Shown piece by piece: positions 2,430-16,742 of a DNA stretch of 20,937 nucleotides. How positions within the stretch are numbered: position 1 is the stretch's first letter; each line of letters begins with the position of its first letter. The translations under genes were made by a program, and so were the position numbers. A model generated the notes under the pieces. That model saw nothing but the letters and a program-made list of their open reading frames with translations, did no database searches and had not been told where the DNA came from. The stretch comes from a virus (Duplodnaviria > Heunggongvirae > Uroviricota > Caudoviricetes): IMG/VR virus record IMGVR_UViG_2713896832_000003. One strand, written 5' to 3'.

Positions 2430-4901
2430 TTAAGAATCAGCCTGACTCGGGATCAGTTTTTGCCAGATAACTGAAACGTATTTTGCCTGGTAACGGGCGT
2501 CATCAAGTGCATTATGGCGCTCACCTTCGAATTGAATAGCCGTTCTGGCATCGAAGTCTATGACTTTCCCCAGCTCAACGATTGTGCGTACATCGCGATC
2601 GTTGTAGTAACGCCACGGGCAGGGGATCCCCTGCCGTTCGTATGAACGGCGCAAAATCGTGTTGTCGAAGTTGGCTCCATTCCCCCAAACCTGAACAAAA
2701 AATTCACCGGAGTTTTCGTCGATAAATTCCCGCAATTGTAACAGTGCATCATCTAACGGGATTTCATCGGTCATAATGGCAGATTGCGCTTCGCGTGATT
2801 GCTTAAGCCACCATTTAATGGTGTCCCGATCAATGACTCCGCCAGCAGTTTCCAGATCGATAGTCTTACTAAATTCCGGTCCCATATCTCCGGTTTGCGG
2901 ATCGAAAAATATTGCACCTATTGAGGTGATCGGGGCATCAGGATTTTTTCCCATGGTTTCAAGGTCGATCATTAGATGGTCACACGTCCTGCTGGTGGAT
3001 GTGATTTCGTGATGACCGTTCACCTTAATTGGGTGATCTGCCGTCTCGCCAGTTTCATTATCGCTATTGTGATGCTGATTGCCGCCAGTGTTCTCCTTGT
3101 GTGGATGTTCAGCGCCTTCCATTTCCTCCGGATCATCTTCCTGAACTTCAACCTGATACTCTTCATCGAATGTTTCTTGGTATGTTGCGTCGCCCATCAC
3201 CGCGCCACAATCAGGGCAGTTGCCGCCGCCGGTCTGACCGCAGGCGGTGCAGACTTTTTCCACTTCCTGTTGCGCTACTGGTTCAGGCTGTTTCGTTTCT
3301 GGCTCGTTTTGTAACGCATTTGGACTGTTTTGTTCCGCTTTTTGGTAGTTCCGTTCCGATTCATGCTGGTTCTGGTTCACAGAATCGCGGGTCTGGATCC
3401 CCTTAACCCATTTCGGATCATTCGGGTCACTAATCCCTTCAACAAATTCACCACGTGATGCAGCAAGCAACTTATCAGCGTCAGGCTGGCTGATATTGGC
3501 TGCCTGCATAATTTTGTTTACTTCGTCAGCGGTAACTTTTATCGGCTCTGGTTGTTCTGAATCTTCAGCGGTATCTACATTTTGCGGTAAGCCCGTGTAT
3601 GTGCCATTTTTTCGGGCAAAATATTCTTCTTTTGTGATTTCAGTGGCGCCAGCAGCCAGTGCCTTATCCAGACCAGAAAGTTTGTTTGCGCGACCGTATT
3701 TTTCTCCGTCCTTATCTGCGAAGAGGAAATAGAACGGCCCCTCACGCTCTACAGATGGTTCAGCTTCCGGCGCGGTTTCATTTTTTGGGATATCAGATAC
3801 CTCAGTTTCCACTGCATCAGTTTGTGTTTCTGATGACTGGAGAACATCAACAGTGCCCAGGTCTGTTTCTTCATTCTCAAACACGCCCTTTGTCGTCAGG
3901 TATTCGCAGATATATTTGTTCAGTGCTACGGGATCTTTGTGAATGTCGATCGGACGCTCACGGACAAGGCCAAAAATAGTTTGGCGGTCGTAGCGAAGGG
4001 CATCAGGCTGTTTGCGCATTGATGCCGAGATACGCTTCCAGTCTTCGCGGTCGTTGTCGATAACTTCTTTTTTTGCCCAGCGATGGATGCTGCCGTCAAT
4101 GTTTCCGGCATCCACATCACCAGGCCAGAGAGCGTAGGCCAGTTCGTCATCCAGTGTTTTCCATGTCTGCTTGTATTCGCGATGAATGGCAGCAATGACC
4201 GGGCTGATTTTTCCTGTTGAATTTTCAGTGTACTGTTGATTGGCTCTGGCGCGTGCGAGATCAACAACAGACGTGTATTTTCCGGTTTCCTTGCGTTCAC
4301 CTTCGCGACGTTTTTTCCAGATGCGCATCTCTGCCTGAATTTCGGGCCATTTAGCACCAGGAATACATTTATGCTTAACCCACCCAATGGCGTGCAACTT
4401 AAGCTCCGGATACATGGCGTTAACTTCTGGCATTTTCATCAACGCTTCAACGATATGTCCGTCGAATGTTGCCATGTCTTCCTGCAACAATTCCTGTGCG
4501 CTAATAACCATATCAACGGTGATGTTTTCACATGTGTCGAACTTAACCATGACAGCGTTCTGTACTTCAGGGGCCAGCTTGTCAAAAGTGACGTTCATCG
4601 GATCGGATTCAGTCTCAACCGGGACAAAAGAAGCAGACTCCTCATCCCAGCGGTTTTCCTGCATATATTCAGCATCCCATGAATCGAGGGCAGGGCGGGG
4701 TATGCCAGGTTTATCCTCGCAGACAATAAATTTATAAGCGCAGTCCTGAGCAGCCGGATAATGTTCCAGGAATTGCCAGTGAAATTTTGCTCGAGCACGG
4801 CGTTCGTCGCCAGCTTCAATGGCTGTGGCTACAGCCACAGCGCCTTCTTCCCTTGTTGCCAGTTCGTCAGGAATAGCGGCGCAAATAAAGACTTTACTCA
4901 T
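2430..4901 (-). CDS. exodeoxyribonuclease VIII-like protein: RecE-like central region with a DnaQ/DEDDh-type 3'-5' exonuclease C-terminal domain
   Basis: 823-aa ORF. The central acidic/Q-rich segment with zinc-ribbon CTACGQTGGGNCPDCG resembles the RecE middle region as I recall it. The C-terminal ~180 aa carry DEDDh-like motifs (MIDLETMG...; ...WGNGANFD...; ...HNALDDARYQAKY). Confidence 0.8.
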   Translation of the reverse strand: MSKVFICAAIPDELATREEGAVAVATAIEAGDERRARAKFHWQFLEHYPAAQDCAYKFIVCEDKPGIPRPALDSWDAEYMQENRWDEESASFVPVETESDPMNVTFDKLAPEVQNAVMVKFDTCENITVDMVISAQELLQEDMATFDGHIVEALMKMPEVNAMYPELKLHAIGWVKHKCIPGAKWPEIQAEMRIWKKRREGERKETGKYTSVVDLARARANQQYTENSTGKISPVIAAIHREYKQTWKTLDDELAYALWPGDVDAGNIDGSIHRWAKKEVIDNDREDWKRISASMRKQPDALRYDRQTIFGLVRERPIDIHKDPVALNKYICEYLTTKGVFENEETDLGTVDVLQSSETQTDAVETEVSDIPKNETAPEAEPSVEREGPFYFLFADKDGEKYGRANKLSGLDKALAAGATEITKEEYFARKNGTYTGLPQNVDTAEDSEQPEPIKVTADEVNKIMQAANISQPDADKLLAASRGEFVEGISDPNDPKWVKGIQTRDSVNQNQHESERNYQKAEQNSPNALQNEPETKQPEPVAQQEVEKVCTACGQTGGGNCPDCGAVMGDATYQETFDEEYQVEVQEDDPEEMEGAEHPHKENTGGNQHHNSDNETGETADHPIKVNGHHEITSTSRTCDHLMIDLETMGKNPDAPITSIGAIFFDPQTGDMGPEFSKTIDLETAGGVIDRDTIKWWLKQSREAQSAIMTDEIPLDDALLQLREFIDENSGEFFVQVWGNGANFDNTILRRSYERQGIPCPWRYYNDRDVRTIVELGKVIDFDARTAIQFEGERHNALDDARYQAKYVSVIWQKLIPSQADS

Positions 4902-6683: not shown

Positions 6684-7106
6684 GTGGCAAAAGTTTTTAC
6701 ACAAGAAGAGCGGGAAAAAATTAAAGGGCAGGTTGTTGAACTCGTACGCCGGAGTGGGCGTGAGACGTTACGGCAACTGGAAGTCAAGACAGGTGCGACA
6801 AGATATCTGATGAGCGTTCTCGCAAGAGAGCTGGTTGCCAGCGGCGATGTATACAACTCTGGTTACGGGTTATTCCCGTCTGAACAGGCGCGTAAGGACT
6901 GGCAAAATGCCCGTAAAAAGCTCTCAAGGGCAAAGCTGAAGGAACCATCTGCGGTTGATCCGGACCTTATCTGGTCATTACCTGACGGAGAAATACGTCG
7001 TTACGACAGGCGTCATAATATGATTTGTACTGAGTGTCGTAAAAGCGAAGTTATGCAGCGCATATTGTCGTTTTATCAGGGGGATGTCCGGTATTTATTG
7101 AAGTGA
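6684..7106 (+). CDS. hypothetical phage protein, 140 aa
   Basis: GTG start 6 nt after an AGGAGG RBS (6672-6677), 40 nt downstream of the replication gene; basic, protein-like composition. Confidence 0.6.
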   Translation: MAKVFTQEEREKIKGQVVELVRRSGRETLRQLEVKTGATRYLMSVLARELVASGDVYNSGYGLFPSEQARKDWQNARKKLSRAKLKEPSAVDPDLIWSLPDGEIRRYDRRHNMICTECRKSEVMQRILSFYQGDVRYLLK

Positions 7107-7174
7107 CGAGATTAAAGTGCATTAGTTCAGATGCAAATTGACATTTTGTGGCACAGGGTAGAGCTAGCGTGGTT

Positions 7175-7198
7175 GTCCGCTTTGTGCCAAGAGCGGAC
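7175..7198. repeat. palindromic repeat, copy A (GTCCGCTTTGTGCCAAGAGCGGAC)
   Basis: Imperfect hairpin with GTCCGC(T) / (A)GCGGAC arms, between the convergent 6684 gene and the GIY-YIG gene; two mismatches to copy B. Confidence 0.5.
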
Positions 7199-7235
7199 TT
7201 TGCAAAATGGGGGTTATTTCAATCAAAACGTAACG

Positions 7236-8180
7236 TCACAACCAGCCGACGCTCTCTCGCCATTTATAATTAGTAACTTTATCATTTTCGCTTATTTTTT
7301 TAGATATAGAGCGCGGCTCTCTTCCTAGATACTCAGATATTTCTATCGGGGACAAATCAAAATCAACAAGCATGACTCTAAGTTTTTCCATTTCCTTTAA
7401 AGTCCAAGGCTTGCCATAATTTTCATAAAGAGATACCTTATGCTCCCTGATAGTTCGCTTTCTCTGAGTTTCACTTTCCCTCTGAAAAATCTCGCTTTTA
7501 AATTGTGAACGGAACTCTTTACAGAAGTTGTTATCAGTTTTTTTGTTATATAGATTGCTAAAAATAAGCTGGGATGCCGGGTCTAAATCAGGTGTGTTAA
7601 TAATGAAAACTTTGACCTTTTCCATATAGGGATATTCAATTTTACCCAATATGCTTAATTGCTTTATATTAAAAAAACCTCTCAAATCAAAAGATTTAAT
7701 GAGCTTTGATTGGATTACACTTTCAATCCTGCTTGCATTTAAATAACAGTACTTTGCCATTGGAAGGGCCCATACTACCAGTTGAGGAATATATTTTTCT
7801 AATGCAATGCTCTGCCAATCAGTATCAAAGGTTTGGCTTTTTGCTAGCATGTTTTTCGGCAAATCAGAATACATTGTGGTAGATGCCCATATCTTATAAT
7901 CATTCGCCAAGGCTTGATAGTATTTTGTGTGGTTATGAATTTTATAAGCTGACATGAAGCGATAAACGTCTTCGTCGTGACCAGCGTCGTAAATTGTTCG
8001 ATTTCCTCTAAGATAACCGTCGTAATGTTCGGTTATCCTTCTACCTACATTACAACTTACCCCAACGTAAACCACACGACTGAAAAGTCCTTTATGGACA
8101 ATAAGATAAACTCCGCTACAGCCAGATTTCCTGGCCTCTGATAGAGAACCTAAAAATCTCCATTCCATAATTAAATCCAT
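7236..8180 (-). CDS. GIY-YIG nuclease-domain protein with a C-terminal putative HTH region
   Basis: N-terminal SGVYLIVHKGLFSRVVYVGVSCNVGRRITEH fits the GIY...YIG...R...E pattern of GIY-YIG nucleases. The C-terminal ~60 aa (PWTLKEMEKLRVMLVDFDLSPIEISEYLGREPRSISKKIS) are HTH-like. AT-rich coding sequence. Confidence 0.7.
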   Translation of the reverse strand: MDLIMEWRFLGSLSEARKSGCSGVYLIVHKGLFSRVVYVGVSCNVGRRITEHYDGYLRGNRTIYDAGHDEDVYRFMSAYKIHNHTKYYQALANDYKIWASTTMYSDLPKNMLAKSQTFDTDWQSIALEKYIPQLVVWALPMAKYCYLNASRIESVIQSKLIKSFDLRGFFNIKQLSILGKIEYPYMEKVKVFIINTPDLDPASQLIFSNLYNKKTDNNFCKEFRSQFKSEIFQRESETQRKRTIREHKVSLYENYGKPWTLKEMEKLRVMLVDFDLSPIEISEYLGREPRSISKKISENDKVTNYKWRESVGWL

Positions 8181-8348
8181 AATTATTGCTACTGTTTTTG
8201 TTTATCATTATTTTCGTGAAACTTCAACAATTTTATCCAAAAGCTAAGGGCAAAGACTTATATAATTATACTTGTCATCGTTAGCGATTATATAGAGTAG
8301 TGGCGCTGACCTGCTCCCTGGTGATTCACACAGAATGCTGTTAGTAAT

Positions 8349-8372
8349 GTCCGTTCCTCGCTCTCAGCGGAC
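8349..8372. repeat. palindromic repeat, copy D (GTCCGTTCCTCGCTCTCAGCGGAC)
   Basis: Same arm sequences as copies A, B and C; about 170 nt upstream of the GIY-YIG gene start. Confidence 0.45.
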
Positions 8373-8390
8373 CTTCAGCTCAGTGATATC

Positions 8391-8414
8391 GTCCGCTCTG
8401 TGCAAAGAGCGGAC
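8391..8414. repeat. palindromic repeat, copy B (GTCCGCTCTGTGCAAAGAGCGGAC)
   Basis: 8-bp arms GTCCGCTC/GAGCGGAC around an 8-nt spacer; starts 42 nt after the start of copy D. Confidence 0.5.
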
Positions 8415-8727
8415 GTTGGTATGCAAGAGCCCTCCAAAAGTTGATGGTTGGTTTGCAGGGGGGCTTAAAGAAACTGCACTTATCAAGTTGAAGTTCTGTA
8501 TTCAGCGAAATCGTAGCACTCTGACGATAAGTAACTCCGGTACTCCGCTCTTCGATGAAGAACCAGAGTAATCCCCCCGAAAAACCAGCGCATCAAAATT
8601 GGATCTTCAGCGGTAGCTTATCGGCTATCGGAAGTACAGGTGTGGATTCGTGGTGAATTGCTTTGATAATAAACGATTAATACGGAAAAACGCATTAATC
8701 ATTTATTAGCTTTTAGTAAACCACAAT

Positions 8728-10077
8728 TTATTCCGTTTTACATATCATAGTAGTCGATTGGAGAATATAGTTTCTGGGAATGTACTCTTCAAAGTGTTCG
8801 TCCTTTTTAAATACATGAACTACATTTGGGAATAATTGATAGTCAACAGGGTGTATAGCGTTTGGATTATGGTACATGTACATGGCTGTACACCATGGTT
8901 CTTGATAGTTAGGGTCACTTACATCGGCTGAAAATGGATGTGGGGCTGCATCCTGATCAGTTTTAACACCACTGACGTACACTTTGAATCCACTCGCCTC
9001 TACACCTGCAAGAATTCCCATCCGGTTAAACTTAGGTATGGTTGCTTGAGTAGTGAGTAAAACGGCAGAAACATAATTATTTTGTTCTGAGCCAAAAAAG
9101 TTCGACTTGATACTTCTATTTTCATCTGTATGTCTTTCAATAGAAATGCCTGACTCAATATCAATCCCGTACAAATAGCTATGCAAGGCTTCGCTTGAGA
9201 AGGCCATGGACATTCTTTTTGAATAATCCTGCATTGCTATGACAAATGGTTTGTTCTTTGTATGGTTGAGTTCCCAGTAATGAACTTTCTCTGGCTCAGG
9301 GCAATGCCGGACTTTTTTTAATAAACTTCTTGCAAACTTAAAAGGCATGACATTTAGAACATGTTTTCTTAATTCATCCATCTGTTCATCGTTAATGACT
9401 TTTCTTTCAAGAGGGGCTTCTGCTTCAGCAATGCTTACAGCCTCTACAGCAATTTCCACTCCAAATTTAGATAGCAGAAAATCTGGTTGATTGTATTCTC
9501 TATTCATTTCAAAGTCGAGTTCATAAAATACAGCGTTCAAATATAATTCAAATAACCTTGAATTAAATGCATCACTTTGAAAATCCCTTATAAATATTCC
9601 ATCAGGATCTTTGAACCAGTATGCAAGTTCCTCAAGAACAATATATGCAGGGAAATGAAGAGGGTCTTCGAGGAGCATTTTTATATAAACATTCCTTTTT
9701 TTCGCTGGGACCTTACTCAAGAATAATGAAAAAGGTTTGGTTGATTCATCGCCTTGCATGAATGTACCATTTTGGTGCTGCGCCAGCATCTTTGGTATGT
9801 CATCGTTCAAATTATTAAGCAAGACATCCATTGAATCAAATGAAGCCAAGACGTTTATTGCTCTGAATTTTTTATCTAAATCCCGACCTAAGACTATTGC
9901 GTTAAAATCTTTATCAATATTGCATATGATTATTGTGGATAACAATGTTATCCCATTCCCCTCATATTTAAACCAGCGTATCTCCTCAGAAAATGTCTTA
10001 AGGTAAGGTGAGCGACCGTAAAAATAAATATCAAATTGTTCTTTGCTGATCTCACTGAAGTGTAATCCTGCGTTCAT
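8728..10077 (-). CDS. hypothetical protein, 449 aa, no recognised domain
   Basis: Long AT-rich ORF with an AAAAGGAA RBS before the ATG, upstream of and co-oriented with the GIY-YIG gene. A hairpin-plus-T-rich terminator candidate lies on the minus strand around 8672-8700. Confidence 0.7.
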   Translation of the reverse strand: MNAGLHFSEISKEQFDIYFYGRSPYLKTFSEEIRWFKYEGNGITLLSTIIICNIDKDFNAIVLGRDLDKKFRAINVLASFDSMDVLLNNLNDDIPKMLAQHQNGTFMQGDESTKPFSLFLSKVPAKKRNVYIKMLLEDPLHFPAYIVLEELAYWFKDPDGIFIRDFQSDAFNSRLFELYLNAVFYELDFEMNREYNQPDFLLSKFGVEIAVEAVSIAEAEAPLERKVINDEQMDELRKHVLNVMPFKFARSLLKKVRHCPEPEKVHYWELNHTKNKPFVIAMQDYSKRMSMAFSSEALHSYLYGIDIESGISIERHTDENRSIKSNFFGSEQNNYVSAVLLTTQATIPKFNRMGILAGVEASGFKVYVSGVKTDQDAAPHPFSADVSDPNYQEPWCTAMYMYHNPNAIHPVDYQLFPNVVHVFKKDEHFEEYIPRNYILQSTTMICKTE

Positions 10078-10361
10078 ACCAATTCCTTTTCAATGAATAA
10101 TTGGCCTTTAGGAGTGATTCCCTTTGTCTTTAATTCAGTTCTAACTAGTTCTTTAATCCAATAGCCTAAGCTCATCATGCAGTTGGATCATAAGACAACG
10201 CCCTATAGTGCTCGTGATACTATAGGGCATCTGACCACACTGTTAACTGGAGTAACGACTATGGCAGGAATACAGCATAACCAAACTCACCCCAAACTTA
10301 CATAGCGCTTTCTGGCCGTGAGCATAACAAGGTCCACTCCTCGCTCATAAGGGACAACCAT

Positions 10362-10394
10362 ACTCAAATCTCCCACATTGCAGGAGATTTGAGT
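10362..10394 (+). promoter_or_regulatory. 12-bp perfect inverted repeat whose right arm covers the RBS of the recombinase gene
   Basis: ACTCAAATCTCC (10362-10373), 9-nt loop, GGAGATTTGAGT (10383-10394), ending 1 nt before ATG 10395. Would sequester the Shine-Dalgarno sequence in the mRNA. Confidence 0.4.
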
Positions 10395-10997
10395 ATGAAC
10401 ACGTCACCGTGGAACAAAGACCGTATCATAGGCCAAAAAAGACCACTTCAGATATCTCATATCTGGGGTATCCGAATCCGACTTGAACTGGAAGGTAAAA
10501 CTCGCGATTTAGCTCTGTTCAACATGGCCCTGGATAGTAAGCTTCGAGGCTGTGATCTGGTCAAACTCAAAGTATCTGATGTTGCATATGGTGGCTCTGT
10601 TTCAAGCAGAGCAACGGTGTTGCAACAGAAAACCGGTAGCCCTGTTCAATTTGAGATAACCAAAGGGACAAGAGAAGCTGTTGCTGCATTGATACAGCTT
10701 AGCAATTTGCACAGTAAAGACTTCTTGTTTCGGTCTAGGGTCGGAACTAACCAGCACATTTCAACCCGGCAATACAACCGAATCTTTCATGGGGGGGTAG
10801 AAAAGCTTGGTCTCGAAGATTCGCTTTACAGCACACATTCCATGAGAAGAACAAAACCTTACCTGATCTACAAGAAAACCAAGAATCTCCGGGTGATCCA
10901 ACTTCTGTTGGGTCATAAGAAACTGGAAAGCACAGTCCGTTATCTGGGCATTGAAGTCGATGATGCGTTAGAGATTTCTGAATCGATTGAAGTCTAA
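10395..10997 (+). CDS. FimB/FimE-like short tyrosine recombinase (catalytic domain only, ~200 aa)
   Basis: Contains the tyrosine-recombinase catalytic residues in order (LRGCDL; QQKTGSPVQ; HSMRRT; LLLGHKKLESTVRYL) but no N-terminal core-binding domain, the FimB/FimE architecture. The ORF track starts at TTG 10389; ATG 10395 with an AGGAG RBS is more likely. Confidence 0.8.
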   Translation: MNTSPWNKDRIIGQKRPLQISHIWGIRIRLELEGKTRDLALFNMALDSKLRGCDLVKLKVSDVAYGGSVSSRATVLQQKTGSPVQFEITKGTREAVAALIQLSNLHSKDFLFRSRVGTNQHISTRQYNRIFHGGVEKLGLEDSLYSTHSMRRTKPYLIYKKTKNLRVIQLLLGHKKLESTVRYLGIEVDDALEISESIEV

Positions 10998-11003
10998 GGT
11001 TGT

Positions 11004-11025
11004 CAGGGCTGCAACAGCAGCCCTG
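11004..11025. terminator. hairpin just after the recombinase stop (CAGGGCTGC-AACA-GCAGCCCTG)
   Basis: 9-bp perfect stem 7 nt after the TAA; no clear U-tract, so terminator function is uncertain. Confidence 0.35.
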
Positions 11026-11356
11026 TGCCATAAGCGGAAGTATTTAACAACTATCAGTGTTGTTCAACAGATAAAGGGGCACTTGATTTTTTCTGTTCTC
11101 AGGAAATGATAAAAGCGCGTCGGTTCAAGCCTGCTTAACGGGAGTTTGTTAATCCTGTTGCCGTGACGTTTTGACACCATTATGATGGGGAGACACTTAA
11201 TGTATGAAGGTTCCGCCACTTATACCTGTCCAACAACTGCCTCGGATGTTTCTTTGTATGAATAAGTGGTAATGAGTAGTGAATCGCTAACAGTCACCCG
11301 AACAATCGGTGCCTGCAATTAATTCTATATTCTAAACGAGGGGGAGATTATTACAC

Positions 11357-12337
11357 ATGAAATTTAAGGACAAGAACCTTAAGGCTCTCGCGGAATGTAT
11401 CATAGGAGATAATAAGGCATTTCTGTATCGTTCAAGCAGTCACATCACTGAATTTTTCCAGGACTGCGGCATGGATGTTACTCATGACGGATCCACTCGG
11501 TGGAAATGGACGGCCCAGAGGCTTGAAGAACTTCTTTATGAGCCACAGTCAAAGCCACATACTTTGCCGGAAAGGTTTGTTCATGTGCTCAGAACTTTAA
11601 TGTTAAAAGAAGATGCAATGGATGACGATCCAGGAAGATTAAAGGCGCTTGAAGAACTGAACAAGCCTTTGATGCGGGAAGGCTATGAGGCATTCTATGG
11701 TGACGATCGCCTTTTGTATATACGCCATACCGATACCAAAACGGTTTCAGTCAGTAATAACCCTCATCGGCCCTTAACGCCTCACGAAGTAGAATGCAGA
11801 AGGTTACTGACCGCGTTTCTTGATACCTGCTCAGAAGATGAGTTAATAGAAGATATTCTCCTTCCTTTATTCCGGCAACTTGGTTTTCACCGGATAACAG
11901 CAGTGGGACATAAAGATAAAGCGCTGGAATACGGGAAAGACATCTGGATGAAGTTCACACTGCCAACTCAGCATGTTCTTTATTTCGGCATTCAGGCAAA
12001 AAAAGGTAAGTTGGATGCGTCCGGTGCCAGCAAATCTACGAATTCAAACGTGGCAGAAATCTTCAACCAGGTACTGATGATGCTTGGCCATGAAATATTT
12101 GACCCAGAAACAAATAGAAAGGTGCTGGTAGATCATGCCTTTATCGTTGCTGGCGGAGAAATTACTAAACAGGCGAGGAACTGGCTGGGCGGGAAACTTG
12201 ATGCCAGCAAAAGAAGCCAGATAATATTTATGGACCGGGAAGACATTCTTAATTTATATACTGTAAGTAATGTACCTCTGCCAACAGGTGCTCTCATCTC
12301 TGATGATGCCGTTAAGAACGATGATATTCCTTTCTAA
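11357..12337 (+). CDS. hypothetical protein with an Mrr-like (PD-(D/E)xK, D...QxK) nuclease motif in the C-terminal half
   Basis: Strong RBS GAGGGGGAG before the ATG. Motif ...EYGKDIWMKF...HVLYFGIQAKKGKL resembles the Asp...Gln-x-Lys catalytic signature of Mrr-type restriction endonuclease domains; the N-terminal ~160 aa are unassigned. Confidence 0.65.
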   Translation: MKFKDKNLKALAECIIGDNKAFLYRSSSHITEFFQDCGMDVTHDGSTRWKWTAQRLEELLYEPQSKPHTLPERFVHVLRTLMLKEDAMDDDPGRLKALEELNKPLMREGYEAFYGDDRLLYIRHTDTKTVSVSNNPHRPLTPHEVECRRLLTAFLDTCSEDELIEDILLPLFRQLGFHRITAVGHKDKALEYGKDIWMKFTLPTQHVLYFGIQAKKGKLDASGASKSTNSNVAEIFNQVLMMLGHEIFDPETNRKVLVDHAFIVAGGEITKQARNWLGGKLDASKRSQIIFMDREDILNLYTVSNVPLPTGALISDDAVKNDDIPF

Positions 12338-12561
12338 TCAGAAGTACGTCTTTTTCTGAAAGAATACGTGATAGGTAGCCACACCACACCTTTAGTGACC
12401 CCTTAATCTGGTAATATAACAGCCCGTATGAATGTCCGCGGCATCGCGGGCTGAAATTTATTAAAAATACTTATTCATCAAGCTGGAGTAGTTTGCCGAG
12501 TAACTGTAAACGCCCAACTTAACCGGACCATTCACTTTTAGATTGCTACCAGCAAACCAAC

Positions 12562-12585
12562 TTCCGTTTCTCGCTCAAAGCGGAC
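12562..12585. repeat. palindromic repeat, copy C (TTCCGTTTCTCGCTCAAAGCGGAC)
   Basis: Closest to copy D; lies ~225 nt after the Mrr-like gene at the right edge of the AT-rich island. Confidence 0.45.
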
Positions 12586-12764
12586 TAGAAGGTTAGCTTG
12601 CGTCGGACTTGGCGTATTTAAAGAAGTGCTGGTGGTAACTGGTTGTTGTGTTCCATTTCTACAAAACAAAATCACAGAAACTATACCCAATAGTTATATT
12701 GAATCAATGATGAGACAGCCTCATATTTATCAGAACTGGTGTACGTCCAATACAGGAGGTTGTC

Positions 12765-12854: not shown

Positions 12855-13065
12855 TTTTATATTGGCGAGGTGACGGGAGTTAAGTAGAATTGCTGCGGGT
12901 GCTTGAGGCTATCTGCCTCAGGCATGAACACCAAAGGCAGATAGAGAAAAGCCCCAGTTAACATTACGCGTCCTGCAAGACGTTTAACATTAATCTGAGG
13001 CTCAATCTATGAACGGCAAATCTAGGTTAGCCTCTTACGTGCCGAAAGGCAAGGAGAAGCAGGCT

Positions 13066-13221
13066 ATGAAGCAGCAAAAGGCGATGTTAATCGCCCTGAT
13101 CGTCATCTGTTTAACCGTCATAATGACGGCACTGGTAACGAGGAAAGACCTCTGCGAGGTACGAATCCGAACCGGCCAGACGGAGGTCGCTGTCTTCACA
13201 GCTTACGAACCTGAGGAGTAA
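13066..13221 (+). CDS. hokD: Hok/Gef family membrane toxin HokD (RelF)
   Basis: 51-aa product MKQQKAMLIALIVICLTVIMTALVTRKDLCEVRIRTGQTEVAVFTAYEPEE matches recalled HokD; AAGGAG RBS at 13051-13056. The listed ORF 13009..13221 is an in-frame 19-codon upstream extension. Confidence 0.85.
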   Translation: MKQQKAMLIALIVICLTVIMTALVTRKDLCEVRIRTGQTEVAVFTAYEPEE

Positions 13222-16432: not shown

Positions 16433-16508
16433 GGCCCTTTAGCTCAGTGGTGAGAGCGAGCGACTCATAATCGACAGGTCGCTGGGTCAAATCCAGCAAG
16501 GGCCACCA
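16433..16508 (+). tRNA. tRNA, anticodon CAU, Ile2 (ileX-like)
   Basis: 76 nt; 7-bp acceptor stem GGCCCTT/AAGGGCC, 4-bp D stem, anticodon loop CTCATAA, discriminator A and encoded CCA. Resembles E. coli tRNA-Ile2 as recalled, but has two mismatches in the anticodon stem and G at T-loop position 54. Confidence 0.7.
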
Positions 16509-16509
16509 A

Positions 16510-16586
16510 CCGTCACCAGTTCATCAGGAAAGAGCGTCAACCCTTTAAGTTGAGTGTGCGAGGTTCGAGTCCCCGGTGGCGGTCCA
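16510..16586 (+). tRNA. atypical tRNA-like gene, anticodon loop CCTTTAA (anticodon UUU if functional); possibly a pseudo-tRNA
   Basis: Folds as a cloverleaf with encoded CCA, but has C1-G72, C at position 8, C at position 33 and one T-stem mismatch. Confidence 0.4.
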
Positions 16587-16588
16587 GT

Positions 16589-16664
<76 letters not shown>

Positions 16665-16667
16665 TAT

Positions 16668-16742
<75 letters not shown>

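What the first reader, a model, noticed from the sequence alone, without database searches (positions are those of the whole stretch)
7236..10077. Co-oriented gene pair: 449-aa unknown protein followed by a GIY-YIG + HTH protein
The two minus-strand genes sit in tandem. The downstream one combines an N-terminal GIY-YIG catalytic core (GVYLI...VYVGVS...RRITEH) with a C-terminal HTH-like segment, an arrangement that differs from classical homing endonucleases. I could place no motif on the upstream 449-aa protein. The ~550-bp spacer between them holds two copies of the GCGGAC-arm palindrome, suggesting regulated expression of the nuclease gene. This could be a two-component effector/sensor module or a mobile GIY-YIG endonuclease cassette.
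Basis: partly seen in the sequence, partly recalled or inferred. Interest (0 to 1): 0.75.

Follow-up and report, generated by a model that had tools for sequence, protein, structure and literature searches.

The report
Two independent nuclease cassettes, shared recombination sites
The two genes are not a sensor/effector pair but two separately mobile single-gene cassettes in an E. coli prophage (a known anti-phage nuclease and an untested GIY-YIG nuclease), and the palindromes between them look like the junction sites of a cassette-swapping system I could not find described.

Summary
In detail: both ORFs, the 547-bp spacer and two GCGGAC-arm palindromes are at the stated coordinates. The interpretation mostly fails.

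- **449-aa protein.** It is PD-T7-1, a published single-gene E. coli anti-phage system with a PD-(D/E)xK nuclease core.
- **314-aa protein.** It is a divergent GIY-YIG nuclease with a C-terminal Myb/SANT-like HTH. This is the same domain order as I-TevI.
- **Linkage.** Each gene occurs without the other in E. coli, and no other species examined has the pair. The GIY-YIG gene is even an attC-flanked integron cassette in Vibrio.
- **Palindromes.** They are not operators. They form two classes of 9-6-9 sites, A (spacer GTGCCA) and B (TCGCTC), alternating A B A B A B across window 7175-12585.
- **Breakpoints.** Sequence mosaicism between prophages, islands and plasmids breaks inside these sites.
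- **Recombinase.** A 200-aa tyrosine recombinase gene sits inside one B/A junction, from E. coli and Proteus; Idiomarina and marine ICE copies keep only the A' side.

Best reading: an array of site-bounded cassettes in a lambdoid prophage hotspot, probably exchanged by site-specific recombination. That mechanism is inferred, and the recombinase is absent near most sites.

The parts
7175..7198 (+). A-type site (GTCCGCTTT GTGCCA AGAGCGGAC). Left boundary of the variable hotspot and of the GIY-YIG cassette.
   Evidence: Homology with other lambdoid prophages ends at window ~7197-7203, and the GIY-YIG cassette shared with other islands starts at 7175.
7236..8180 (-). 314-aa GIY-YIG nuclease with a C-terminal Myb/SANT-like HTH. 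Stand-alone cargo gene and candidate single-gene defence nuclease.
8349..8372 (+). B-type site (GTCCGTTCC TCGCTC TCAGCGGAC). Right end of the GIY-YIG cassette.
   Evidence: In L013 the same left arm and spacer are followed by a different right arm and a different flank.
8373..8390 (+). 18-nt linker (CTTCAGCTCAGTGATATC) of the B-linker-A junction between cassettes.
   Evidence: The 66-bp junction is present in 635 of 5426 E. coli genomes, median one copy. B-to-A start spacing is 40-42 nt in 13 of 14 junctions, although the linker sequence differs between genera.
8391..8414 (+). A-type site (GTCCGCTCT GTGCAA AGAGCGGAC). Left end of the PD-T7-1 cassette.
   Evidence: (I22).
8586..8666 (+). Relic of the C-terminus of an AlpA-family gene, carried inside the PD-T7-1 cassette.
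   Evidence: RefSeq pseudogene annotation and translation. An intact alpA lies at the same relative position beside the Serratia PD-T7-1 homologue.
8728..10077 (-). PD-T7-1, a 449-aa single-gene anti-phage protein with a PD-(D/E)xK nuclease core.
10219..10246 (-). Promoter-like site (TTAACA-16-TATAGT) upstream of PD-T7-1, inside its cassette.
   Evidence: Consensus scan only, 10 of 12 matches. It lies within the ~300 bp of native upstream DNA that sufficed for defence in PMC9519451. Function is inferred.
10332..10355 (+). B-type site with a degenerate right arm (GTCCACTCC TCGCTC ATAAGGGAC). Right end of the PD-T7-1 cassette and left edge of the recombinase module.
   Evidence: Homology of the recombinase module in 902 E. 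coli genomes starts at window 10333-10341.
10359..10397 (+). Perfect 15-bp inverted repeat whose hairpin covers the Shine-Dalgarno sequence and the ATG of the recombinase gene.
   Evidence: I10. RNA fold -26.3 kcal/mol, z = -6.96. Kept in Proteus through changes on both arms.
10395..10997 (+). 200-aa minimal tyrosine recombinase, consisting almost entirely of the catalytic domain. It sits in a B/A junction.
   Evidence: Pfam PF00589, E 2e-17. NCBIfam Xer/invertase-like. Family 77-95% identical across Gammaproteobacteria. RefSeq start codon.
11016..11039 (+). A-type site with a degenerate left arm (AGCAGCCCT GTGCCA TAAGCGGAA), overlapping a 9-bp stem-loop after the recombinase stop codon. Right edge of the recombinase module.
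   Evidence: Homology in other genomes ends at window ~11038-11041.
11357..12337 (+). 326-aa ORF with no match in any library. Cargo of the third cassette.
12562..12585 (+). B-type site (TTCCGTTTC TCGCTC AAAGCGGAC). Right boundary of the variable hotspot.
   Evidence: The hokD-side homology with thousands of E. coli prophages begins at window ~12557-12590.

Best explanation
Window 7175-12585 is the variable cargo hotspot of a Qin-like lambdoid prophage of E. coli, lying between the DUF977 replication-region gene and hokD. It holds three independent cassettes and one small recombinase gene. They are laid out as A | GIY-YIG | B-linker-A | alpA relic + PD-T7-1 | B' | int | A' | 326-aa ORF | B.

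The two genes of the finding are separate single-gene units that merely abut.
- PD-T7-1 is an experimentally validated anti-phage protein. It works alone, and its core is a PD-(D/E)xK nuclease.
- The 314-aa protein is an intact GIY-YIG endonuclease tethered to a Myb/SANT-like DNA-binding domain. It is most likely another stand-alone anti-phage DNA nuclease (inferred from context only).

The GCGGAC-arm palindromes are not operators for the nuclease gene. They are two classes of 24-bp 9-6-9 sites, A with spacer GTGCCA and B with spacer TCGCTC, and they delimit the cassettes.

I propose that cassettes are moved or swapped by site-specific recombination with strand exchange in the 6-bp spacers. 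Because A and B have different spacers, each would recombine only with its own class, so an A...B-flanked cargo can be exchanged between any two docking sites. The 200-aa tyrosine recombinase encoded inside a B/A junction is the candidate enzyme, acting in cis or in trans.

Shown here: gene identities, folds, independence of the two genes, the site grammar, and breakpoints at the sites.
Inferred: the defence role of the GIY-YIG protein, site-specific rather than homologous exchange, and the identity of the recombinase.
For: PD-T7-1:
- PADLOC HMM over the full length, E 7e-157.
- The published system is one 1350-nt gene, cloned with about 300 bp upstream and 45 bp downstream.
- E177, D199, E212 and K255 are invariant in 32 homologues.

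GIY-YIG protein:
- Y25, Y38, G40, R48, H52, E153 and N171 are invariant over 26 homologues down to 38% identity.
- The model has pLDDT 92.5.

Independence of the two genes:
- The GIY-YIG cassette is in 289 E. coli genomes, the PD-T7-1 cassette in 201, and both adjacent in 180.
- The GIY-YIG gene stands alone beside type I RM and DarTG, a NACHT protein, AbiH, and BrxR plus an Mks-like system. In V. parahaemolyticus it lies between attC repeats.
- PD-T7-1 stands alone beside a type II RM system, and in a Serratia island.

Sites:
- The window has 6 sites against 0.1 expected. All are co-oriented and alternate A B A B A B.
- In 72 viral contigs the sites never lie on both strands. The patterns seen are A, A B, A B A B and so on.
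- B-to-A spacing is 40-42 nt in 13 of 14 junctions although the linker sequence differs between genera.
- Arm positions are conserved in sequence, not in complementarity.

Breakpoints:
- The same cargo with different flanks diverges inside the sites, and the outer half-site is sometimes barely related (L017, L037).
- A 3.7-kb betT-DUF2254 cassette is 99.76% identical between an IncFIB plasmid and a Rac-like prophage, and it ends at A sites.

Recombinase:
- Its gene is followed within about 20 nt by an A' site in E. coli, Proteus, Idiomarina, marine ICEs and plasmids.
- It is preceded by a B' site in Enterobacterales and Proteus. Idiomarina and the marine ICE loci showed no B' upstream.
- It occurs in lambdoid and P2 hotspots, CP4-type islands and about 300 plasmids.
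Against: - No experiment here or in the papers I found shows that the small recombinase acts on these sites.
- The recombinase gene is missing from all 18 species-representative loci that carry an exact A site.
- It is present in only 4 of 72 viral contigs with such a site, and all 4 show this window's arrangement. It would therefore have to act in trans, or rarely.
- Informative polymorphisms within the 24-bp sites are few, so mapping crossovers to the spacer rests on about six junctions.
- The site scans were seeded with my own consensus, so the profiles lean towards it.
- The defence role of the GIY-YIG protein rests on neighbourhood only. PADLOC gives just weak motif-level hits and Pfam is below its threshold (15.8 against 22.6 bits).
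- Cargo of the same site system on plasmids and in some prophages is metabolic (betT, SDRs), so cassette membership alone does not imply defence.
Confidence: 0.7

Rival explanations
1. The 449-aa and 314-aa proteins form one two-component sensor/effector defence system, expressed together and regulated through the spacer palindromes.
For: The genes are co-oriented and adjacent, and the arrangement is 100% identical in 180 complete E. coli genomes.
Against: PD-T7-1 defends when cloned alone. About 109 E. coli genomes have the GIY-YIG cassette without the adjacent PD-T7-1, and about 21 have the reverse. None of 7 GIY-YIG contexts in other genera, and none of 3 independent PD-T7-1 contexts, has the partner. 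The spacer holds a pseudogene relic on the other strand and tolerates IS1, IS2 and IS3 insertions. The palindromes recur at unrelated cassette boundaries.
Confidence: 0.04
2. The GIY-YIG protein is a free-standing homing-type endonuclease. It would spread its own gene by cutting cognate empty sites and would provide no host benefit.
For: It has the same domain order as I-TevI (N-terminal GIY-YIG, linker, C-terminal HTH) and all I-TevI catalytic positions are kept (I-TevI residues from my own knowledge). It also occurs as a single-gene insertion between housekeeping genes in Kosakonia.
Against: There is no tblastn match in 50,697 phage genomes, where free-standing GIY-YIG homing genes are typically found. 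Its flanks are those of two general cassette systems, A/B sites in Enterobacterales and attC in Vibrio, which also carry many unrelated genes. So its mobility needs no nuclease activity of its own. Its neighbours are repeatedly defence genes.
Confidence: 0.1
3. The A/B palindromes are conserved stem-loops or linker sequences with no dedicated recombinase. Cassettes are shuffled by homologous or microhomology-mediated recombination at these short shared sequences (RecA, or phage RecET/Red). This is the classical linker idea of modular phage evolution. The small integrase would then be just another passenger.
For: Most loci with sites lack the small recombinase. The host prophages encode RecE-like exonucleases. 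The sites fold as DNA hairpins, z about -4. The 66-bp junction would be long enough for inefficient homologous exchange.
Against: Junctions exist where only one half-site plus spacer (about 15 bp) is shared, and the other half is nearly unrelated (L017 GACTGTTTT TGGCCA, L037 GGCTGCTAT). Exchange occurs between replicons with no flanking homology, such as a plasmid and a prophage. There are two spacer classes in strict alternation and a single orientation. B-to-A spacing is conserved although the linker sequence has diverged. Inner arm positions are not complementary, 22-45%. The recombinase gene lies precisely between a B' and an A' half-site in Enterobacterales and Proteus, and the A' side is kept in distant genera.
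Confidence: 0.25
4. The palindromes are operators or terminators that regulate the flanking genes.
For: They are palindromic, intergenic, and lie upstream of the GIY-YIG gene and downstream of both genes.
Against: No T-run follows them, and the terminator scan does not report them. The same sites flank unrelated cargo on either strand. No HTH regulator gene travels with them. The 168 bp between the B site and the GIY-YIG start codon, not the palindromes, is what stays attached to the gene in other contexts.
Confidence: 0.05

Closest known systems
PD-T7-1 (Vassallo et al. 2022, Nat Microbiol, PMC9519451)
   Same: The 449-aa protein matches the PADLOC PD-T7-1 model end to end (E 7e-157) and has the published length of 1350 nt. 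The weak PD-(D/E)xK signal at residues ~171-219 noted in that paper's HHpred table is borne out by the structure model here.
   Different: Nothing essential differs; this is an allele of the known system. What is new here is its genomic packaging as an A...B-bounded cassette that drags along an alpA relic.
I-TevI-type GIY-YIG homing endonucleases, and the GIY-YIG single-gene defence system PD-T4-3
   Same: N-terminal GIY-YIG catalytic domain, linker and C-terminal HTH. The Tyr, Tyr, Arg, His, Glu and Asn positions are conserved.
   Different: About 90 residues are inserted between the Arg/His helix and the catalytic Glu helix. The DNA-binding domain is Myb/SANT-like rather than the I-TevI HTH. 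The gene is not in an intron or a phage genome. It does not match the PD-T4-3 model in PADLOC, and it scores below Pfam's GIY-YIG threshold.
Integrons (IntI, attI/attC gene cassettes)
   Same: Arrays of mostly single-gene cassettes separated by composite imperfect-palindrome sites. A tyrosine recombinase gene lies at the array. Arrays also occur without the recombinase, like CALINs. Cargo is rich in defence genes. The same GIY-YIG gene is a true attC cassette in Vibrio.
   Different: The recombinase has 200 aa, with almost no N-terminal domain and no IntI-specific insertion. The sites are short 9-6-9 duplex-type palindromes of two spacer classes, not attC hairpins. Cassettes lie in either orientation and carry their own upstream regions. 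The recombinase gene sits inside a junction rather than beside an attI and Pc promoter.
pdif modules of Acinetobacter plasmids, and the XerC-like/dif-like system of Tn6022 (PMC11014353)
   Same: Discrete cargo modules bounded by short arm-6-arm recombination sites, found in unrelated replicons.
   Different: The sites have no sequence resemblance to dif (comparison from my own knowledge of dif). They are co-oriented rather than inverted. A dedicated minimal recombinase, not host XerC/XerD, is the candidate enzyme.
[quoted passage not shown] 2022, PMC9122126; PMC13586616)
   Same: The same biology: fixed positions in mobile elements that hold rapidly exchanged defence genes. One locus here is the P2 hotspot between the tail-fibre-assembly and tail-sheath genes, and it is spanned by an A and a B site (L018).
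   Different: Those papers define hotspots by their flanking core genes. The 2026 paper states that the mechanism of exchange with other element types is unresolved. The sites and the small recombinase are not mentioned in the passages I searched.
FimB/FimE-type minimal tyrosine recombinases
   Same: About 200 aa, essentially the catalytic domain only. NCBIfam tyrosine-type DNA invertase models are hit at E 2e-6.
   Different: All sites here are in direct orientation, which predicts excision, integration or exchange rather than inversion. Sequence similarity is low.

Membership tests
PD-T7-1 defence family | Full-length match to the family profile | tested here: met
   PADLOC PDLC04073, E 7.3e-157, residues 8-447 on profile positions 2-448 of 452.
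PD-T7-1 defence family | Single gene sufficient for anti-phage activity | not testable with these tools
   Taken from PMC9519451 Table S2 for the ECOR46 allele and from PMC12409345 for NILS69. This allele was not tested.
PD-(D/E)xK nuclease superfamily (PD-T7-1 core) | Restriction-endonuclease-like fold with conserved acidic and Lys residues | tested here: met
GIY-YIG nuclease superfamily | GIY and YIG motifs, then Arg, then the catalytic Glu and Asn | tested here: met
   GVY (Y25), YVG (Y38, G40), R48, H52, E153 and N171 are all invariant in 26 homologues. Equivalence to I-TevI Y6, Y17, R27, H31, E75 and N90 is by motif spacing, from my own knowledge.
GIY-YIG nuclease superfamily | Curated profile score | tested here: not met
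   Pfam PF01541 scores 15.8 bits against a cutoff of 22.6 and covers only residues 22-62. Three distant homologues do carry a precomputed PF01541 hit.
GIY-YIG nuclease superfamily | GIY-YIG fold | tested here: inconclusive
GIY-YIG homing endonucleases (I-TevI-like) | Gene located in an intron, or free-standing in phage genomes, with homing into a cognate empty site | tested here: not met
   No tblastn hit in 50,697 phage genomes. The contexts are islands, ICEs, prophage hotspots and an integron. Cleavage specificity cannot be tested here.
Tyrosine recombinases | Catalytic domain with R, K, HxxR, H/W and Y | tested here: met
   PF00589, E 2e-17, residues 37-186. Read directly from the sequence: KLRGCD, QQKTG, HSMRRT, LLGH, TVRYLG.
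Integrons | IntI-type integrase | tested here: not met
   NCBIfam integron-integrase models score 17 bits against cutoffs of 265 and 435. The protein has 200 aa.
Integrons | attC sites bounding cassettes | tested here: not met
   The E. coli sites are 24-bp 9-6-9 palindromes with poorly complementary inner arms. True attC (VPR) repeats flank the homologue only in Vibrio.
pdif / Xer-dependent modules | XerC- and XerD-type 11-6-11 sites in alternating orientation | tested here: not met
   All sites are co-oriented. The lack of sequence similarity to dif was judged by eye from my own knowledge, not with a tool.
REP/BIME-type genomic repeats | High copy number, dispersed in intergenic regions of the core genome | tested here: not met
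   The junction occurs 1-3 times per genome, in only 635 of 5426 genomes. Species representatives had one exact A site per 8-kb stretch, and one genome (Erwinia sp. P6884) had two stretches.

The most novel reading that the evidence does not exclude
The GCGGAC-arm palindromes are the recombination sites of an undescribed, integron-like but mechanistically distinct cassette-exchange system of Gammaproteobacteria. Two heterospecific 9-6-9 site classes, A and B, flank each cargo. A minimal 200-aa tyrosine recombinase encoded inside a B/A junction swaps A...B cassettes between docking sites. Those docking sites lie in lambdoid and P2 prophage hotspots, CP4-type islands, ICEs and plasmids. This would amount to a natural form of recombinase-mediated cassette exchange, and it would explain how single-gene defence systems hop between unrelated mobile elements.
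Probability: 0.4. Interest if true: 0.85.

Novelty: new variant of a known kind. Interest (0 to 1): 0.62.

Why it matters
Taken as stated, the finding is modest. One gene is an already published defence system. The other is an uncharacterised but ordinary-looking GIY-YIG nuclease, which would be a cheap and well-motivated candidate for a phage-defence assay.

The part worth following is the palindromes. How defence genes move between prophage or satellite hotspots and unrelated elements such as plasmids is an open question. It is stated as unresolved in a 2026 analysis of P2 and P4 hotspots (PMC13586616).

Conserved, oriented, two-class sites sit exactly at the mosaic breakpoints, and a very highly conserved minimal tyrosine recombinase is embedded in one junction. 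Together they give a concrete hypothesis that can be tested at the bench. They also give a simple sequence signature, A...B, for harvesting unknown single-gene cargo. In a small sample, 20 distinct cargos were recovered, and only a minority of those screened matched a known family.

Tried and rejected
- **Profile libraries.** Pfam and NCBIfam gave nothing for the 449-aa protein and only sub-threshold GIY-YIG hits for the 314-aa protein. PADLOC solved the first.
- **Fold searches.** Foldseek of the GIY-YIG model against the PDB gave no significant match. The afdb50 library was not available.
- **REP/BIME-like repeats.** Rejected on copy number.
- **Intrinsic terminators.** Rejected: no T-run follows the palindromes and the scan does not report them.
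- **attC sites.** Rejected for E. coli. True attC repeats were found only around the Vibrio homologue.
- **dif/Xer sites.** Rejected by eye from my own knowledge of dif, not tested with a tool.
- **Recombinase next to every site array.** This expectation failed: 0 of 18 species loci and 4 of 72 viral contigs carry it. That lowers confidence in it as the enzyme.
- **Literature.** Searches for the site sequence, for tyrosine recombinases in defence hotspots, for Tn7 cargo recombinases and for integron-like anti-phage systems found no description of these sites or this recombinase. A search for a tested GIY-YIG + HTH defence protein found only PD-T4-3 and unrelated END nucleases. Absence from this library does not prove novelty.
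- **Cargo sample.** PADLOC recognised only 2 of 10 sampled cargo proteins from other A...B cassettes. Pfam added AbiV and RES.


Full report
**1. Observation**

The window is E. coli chromosome. Region 7100-10400 is 100% identical to many complete genomes, for example strains 042 and WCHEC035148. It lies in a Qin-like lambdoid prophage next to rspAB. The gene order is integrase, excisionase, RecE-like exonuclease, ydfD, dicB, replication genes, DUF977, then the region of interest, then hokD/sok, rem, rusA and the antiterminator.

The spacer is 547 bp. The pattern GTCCGC-N12-GCGGAC, allowing one mismatch, occurs three times in the window against 0.01 expected. Two copies lie in the spacer (8349-8372 and 8391-8414) and one lies just downstream of the 314-aa gene (7175-7198).

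**2. The 449-aa protein is PD-T7-1**

PADLOC's PD-T7-1 model matches it end to end (E 7e-157). In Vassallo et al. 2022 (PMC9519451), PD-T7-1 is a single 1350-nt gene from ECOR46. It was cloned with about 300 bp upstream and 45 bp downstream, and that clone was sufficient for defence. It protected more strongly against T-even phages than against T7. A later study saw activity against a Teseptimavirus.

**3. The 314-aa protein**

It belongs to a tight family of about 310 aa, found in Enterobacterales, Aeromonas, Vibrio, Photobacterium, Pseudoalteromonas, Thalassotalea and one Undibacterium. Across 26 members, down to 38% identity, these residues are invariant: Y25 (GVY), Y38 and G40 (YVG), R48, H52, E153 and N171. 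This is the full GIY-YIG catalytic set, with I-TevI-like spacing (the I-TevI residues are from my own knowledge). About 90 residues are inserted before the Glu helix.

Evidence on the fold is mixed:
- Pfam and NCBIfam see only the first motifs, below their thresholds.
- The model is confident (pLDDT 92.5).
- Foldseek against the PDB is not significant.

It is therefore a divergent but intact GIY-YIG nuclease carrying a Myb-like HTH. It has no relative in 50,697 phage genomes.

**4. The two genes are not a pair**

In 5426 complete E. coli genomes:

| Segment | Window coordinates | Genomes |
|---|---|---|
| GIY-YIG cassette | 7199-8348 | 289 |
| PD-T7-1 cassette | 8415-10331 | 201 |
| Both adjacent | 7100-10400 (at least 80% covered) | 180 |

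The GIY-YIG gene is found alone in these settings:
- next to a type I RM system and DarTG in a CP4-type island;
- next to a NACHT protein;
- between housekeeping genes in Kosakonia;
- in a Brenneria ICE;
- next to AbiH in Aeromonas;
- next to BrxR and an Mks-like system in Thalassotalea;
- in V. parahaemolyticus, as a cassette between attC (VPR) repeats of the chromosomal integron.

PD-T7-1 is found alone in these settings:
- next to a type II RM system in another prophage;
- in a Serratia P4-integrase island, where an intact alpA lies just downstream;
- overlapping a reverse-transcriptase gene in Pseudomonas.

The Serratia arrangement explains the alpA relic inside the spacer (window 8586-8666). 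In some strains the spacer also tolerates IS1, IS2 and IS3 insertions.

**5. What the palindromes are**

Scanning for sites with both arms close to GTCCGCTCT gave only two kinds of well-formed site:
- A: GTCCGCTCT GTGCCA RGAGCGGAC
- B: (G/T)TCCGYTCC TCGCTC WMAGCGGAC

The window holds six sites, all on one strand, strictly alternating. Shuffled sequence gives 0.1 per window.

| Site | Window coordinates |
|---|---|
| A | 7175 |
| B | 8349 |
| A | 8391 |
| B' | 10332 |
| A' | 11016 |
| B | 12562 |

Between cassettes, B and A form a 66-bp junction. It is present in 635 of 5426 E. coli genomes, usually once. The B-to-A start spacing is 40-42 nt in 13 of 14 junctions from several genera, although the linker sequence differs between them. 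Outer arm positions are conserved as sequence. Inner arm positions are complementary in only 22-45% of sites. This fits protein-binding sites better than hairpins.

**6. Breakpoints fall in the sites**

- Homology with other lambdoid prophages stops at window ~7197-7203 on the left. It resumes at ~12557-12590 on the right. At this position other Qin-like and Rac-like prophages hold other cargo: two unknown genes, or betT-DUF2254-LysR-GGCT-MFS.
- The GIY-YIG cassette in strain SCU-104 shares window 7175-8384 at 99.3% identity. Its left flank and its B right arm are different.
- A 366-aa cargo shares the A right arm and everything beyond it in three loci. Their left halves differ, and one is barely site-like (GACTGTTTT TGGCCA).
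- The PD-T7-1 cassette in strain RM10740 is bounded by GGCTGCTAT|GTGCCA|AGAGCGGAC and GTCCGCTCC|TCGCTC|ATAACAGAT.
- A 3.7-kb betT-DUF2254 cassette is 99.76% identical between an IncFIB plasmid and a Rac-like prophage, and it ends at A sites.
- In a P2-like prophage, an A site and a B site span the known hotspot between the tail-fibre-assembly and tail-sheath genes.
- Exact A sites occur in 18 species-representative stretches, 17 from Enterobacterales and one from a MAG labelled Alphaproteobacteria. There is one site per stretch, but further degenerate sites form arrays around some of them.
- Exact A sites also occur in 72 IMG/VR contigs. There the sites never lie on both strands and follow the patterns A, A B, A B A B and so on.
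- Forty-three A...B intervals in those contigs measure 0.7-2.9 kb and fall into 20 distinct cargos. These include AbiV, a RES-domain protein, a PDC-S31 candidate and a protease resembling known defence effectors. Most are unknown.

**7. The small recombinase**

ORF 10395-10997 encodes a 200-aa tyrosine recombinase that is almost entirely catalytic domain. Pfam PF00589 matches residues 37-186, and the R, K, HxxR, H and Y residues are readable in the sequence.

Its distribution:
- The family is 77-95% identical from E. coli to Proteus, Providencia, Pantoea, Idiomarina and Cycloclasticus.
- It is present in 902 of 5426 E. coli genomes and on about 300 plasmids.
- In E. coli the conserved module runs exactly from the B' site to the A' site, window 10333-11040.

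In every genus examined, the stop codon is followed by a stem-loop. This overlaps ...CCCT GTGCCA RAAGCGGAC, and similarity ends right after it. In Enterobacterales and Proteus, the start codon is preceded by GTCCRCTCC TCGCTC plus a degenerate arm. Idiomarina and the marine ICE loci lack this upstream site. The gene therefore occupies the linker position of a B/A junction.

It is found in lambdoid and P2 hotspots, CP4-type islands, ICE cargo regions and plasmids. Its neighbours include RT, dynamin-like, TIR, SIR2-HerA and RM genes, but also metabolic genes. A perfect 15-bp hairpin covers its ribosome-binding site and start codon (-26.3 kcal/mol, z = -6.96).

**8. Mechanism and rivals**

The best-supported reading is that A and B are core sites for a tyrosine recombinase, with strand exchange in the 6-bp spacer. 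Because the two spacers differ, A would pair only with A and B only with B. An A...B-flanked cargo could then be swapped between docking sites. Alternatively, a cassette could be excised and reinserted through like sites.

Four observations favour this over plain homologous recombination:
- junctions that share only a half-site;
- exchange between replicons without flanking homology;
- the single orientation, the strict alternation and the conserved spacing;
- the embedding of the recombinase gene in a junction.

The main weakness is that most site arrays have no recombinase gene nearby. Nothing here shows catalysis. I put about 0.5 on site-specific exchange by this enzyme. I put about 0.25 on homology-driven exchange at conserved linkers. 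The remainder goes to another enzyme or a mixture of mechanisms.

For the GIY-YIG protein, I put about 0.5 on a stand-alone anti-phage DNA endonuclease and about 0.1 on a selfish homing-type nuclease. The rest is for other roles.

**9. Comparison with known systems, and novelty**

PD-T7-1 is known. The GIY-YIG protein is a new, untested member of a known superfamily.

The site system resembles integrons and pdif modules in logic, but it fails their defining tests:
- the recombinase is not an IntI-type integrase;
- the sites are not attC or dif-like;
- the sites are co-oriented;
- the cassettes carry their own upstream regions.

I found no description of these sites or this recombinase in the held literature. 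A 2026 paper on P2 and P4 hotspots explicitly leaves the exchange mechanism open. I cannot exclude a description in papers outside that library.

**10. Verdict**

The finding as written is a chance adjacency of two single-gene nuclease cassettes, one of them already characterised.

Noticed in passing
window 10359-10397: A perfect 15-bp inverted repeat forms a strong hairpin (-26.3 kcal/mol, z = -6.96). It buries the Shine-Dalgarno sequence and the ATG of the small recombinase gene. Proteus copies keep the pairing through changes on both arms, which suggests translational control of the recombinase.
   Followed up: partly
window 8586-8666 (+); L053 and L055 7405-7569: The spacer carries the last 26 codons of an AlpA-family gene. 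In Serratia marcescens an intact 54-aa alpA lies at the same position and orientation next to the PD-T7-1 homologue in a P4-integrase island. The cassette probably came from such an island.
   Followed up: partly
L056 4748-7410 (Pseudomonas fluorescens HK44): A 418-aa reverse transcriptase gene (RVT_1) overlaps by 4 nt the start of a PD-T7-1 homologue (51% identity). In that lineage the nuclease may be the effector of an RT-based two-gene system.
   Followed up: no
L049 1202-4901 and L052 9075-12774: A betT-DUF2254 cassette is 99.76% identical over 3.7 kb between the IncFIB plasmid pPGRT46 and a Rac-like prophage. It begins and ends at A-type sites, so the site system also moves non-defence cargo.
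   Followed up: yes
L011 8001-8930; L012 1644-2573 (Vibrio parahaemolyticus): The GIY-YIG homologue (61% identity) sits between typical Vibrio attC repeats in an array of small co-oriented genes. It is therefore a chromosomal-integron cassette.
   Followed up: partly
window 11357-12337: A 326-aa ORF forms the third cassette of the array. It has no match in Pfam, NCBIfam, PADLOC or PHROGs, and it is conserved as a hypothetical protein in Enterobacteriaceae.
   Followed up: no
window 12897-13221: The hokD/sok toxin-antitoxin locus (Rfam sok, 111.7 bits) lies about 300 bp to the right of the last B site. It is the conserved right flank of the hotspot in thousands of E. coli prophages.
   Followed up: no
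window 16433-16742: A tRNA cluster lies in the prophage late region. ARAGORN calls four genes (CAT, TTT, TGT and TCC anticodons), but Rfam and RefSeq report only three. The putative tRNA-Lys at 16510-16586 is the extra one.
   Followed up: no
window 2430-4901: The 823-aa prophage exonuclease combines a RecE-like middle region with a C-terminal Rv2179c-like 3'-5' exoribonuclease domain (E 3e-66).
   Followed up: no
window 8181-8727 in other strains (hits H1-H4): IS1, IS2 or IS3 elements are inserted within the matched region, some in the spacer between the two genes. The spacer therefore tolerates disruption.
   Followed up: no
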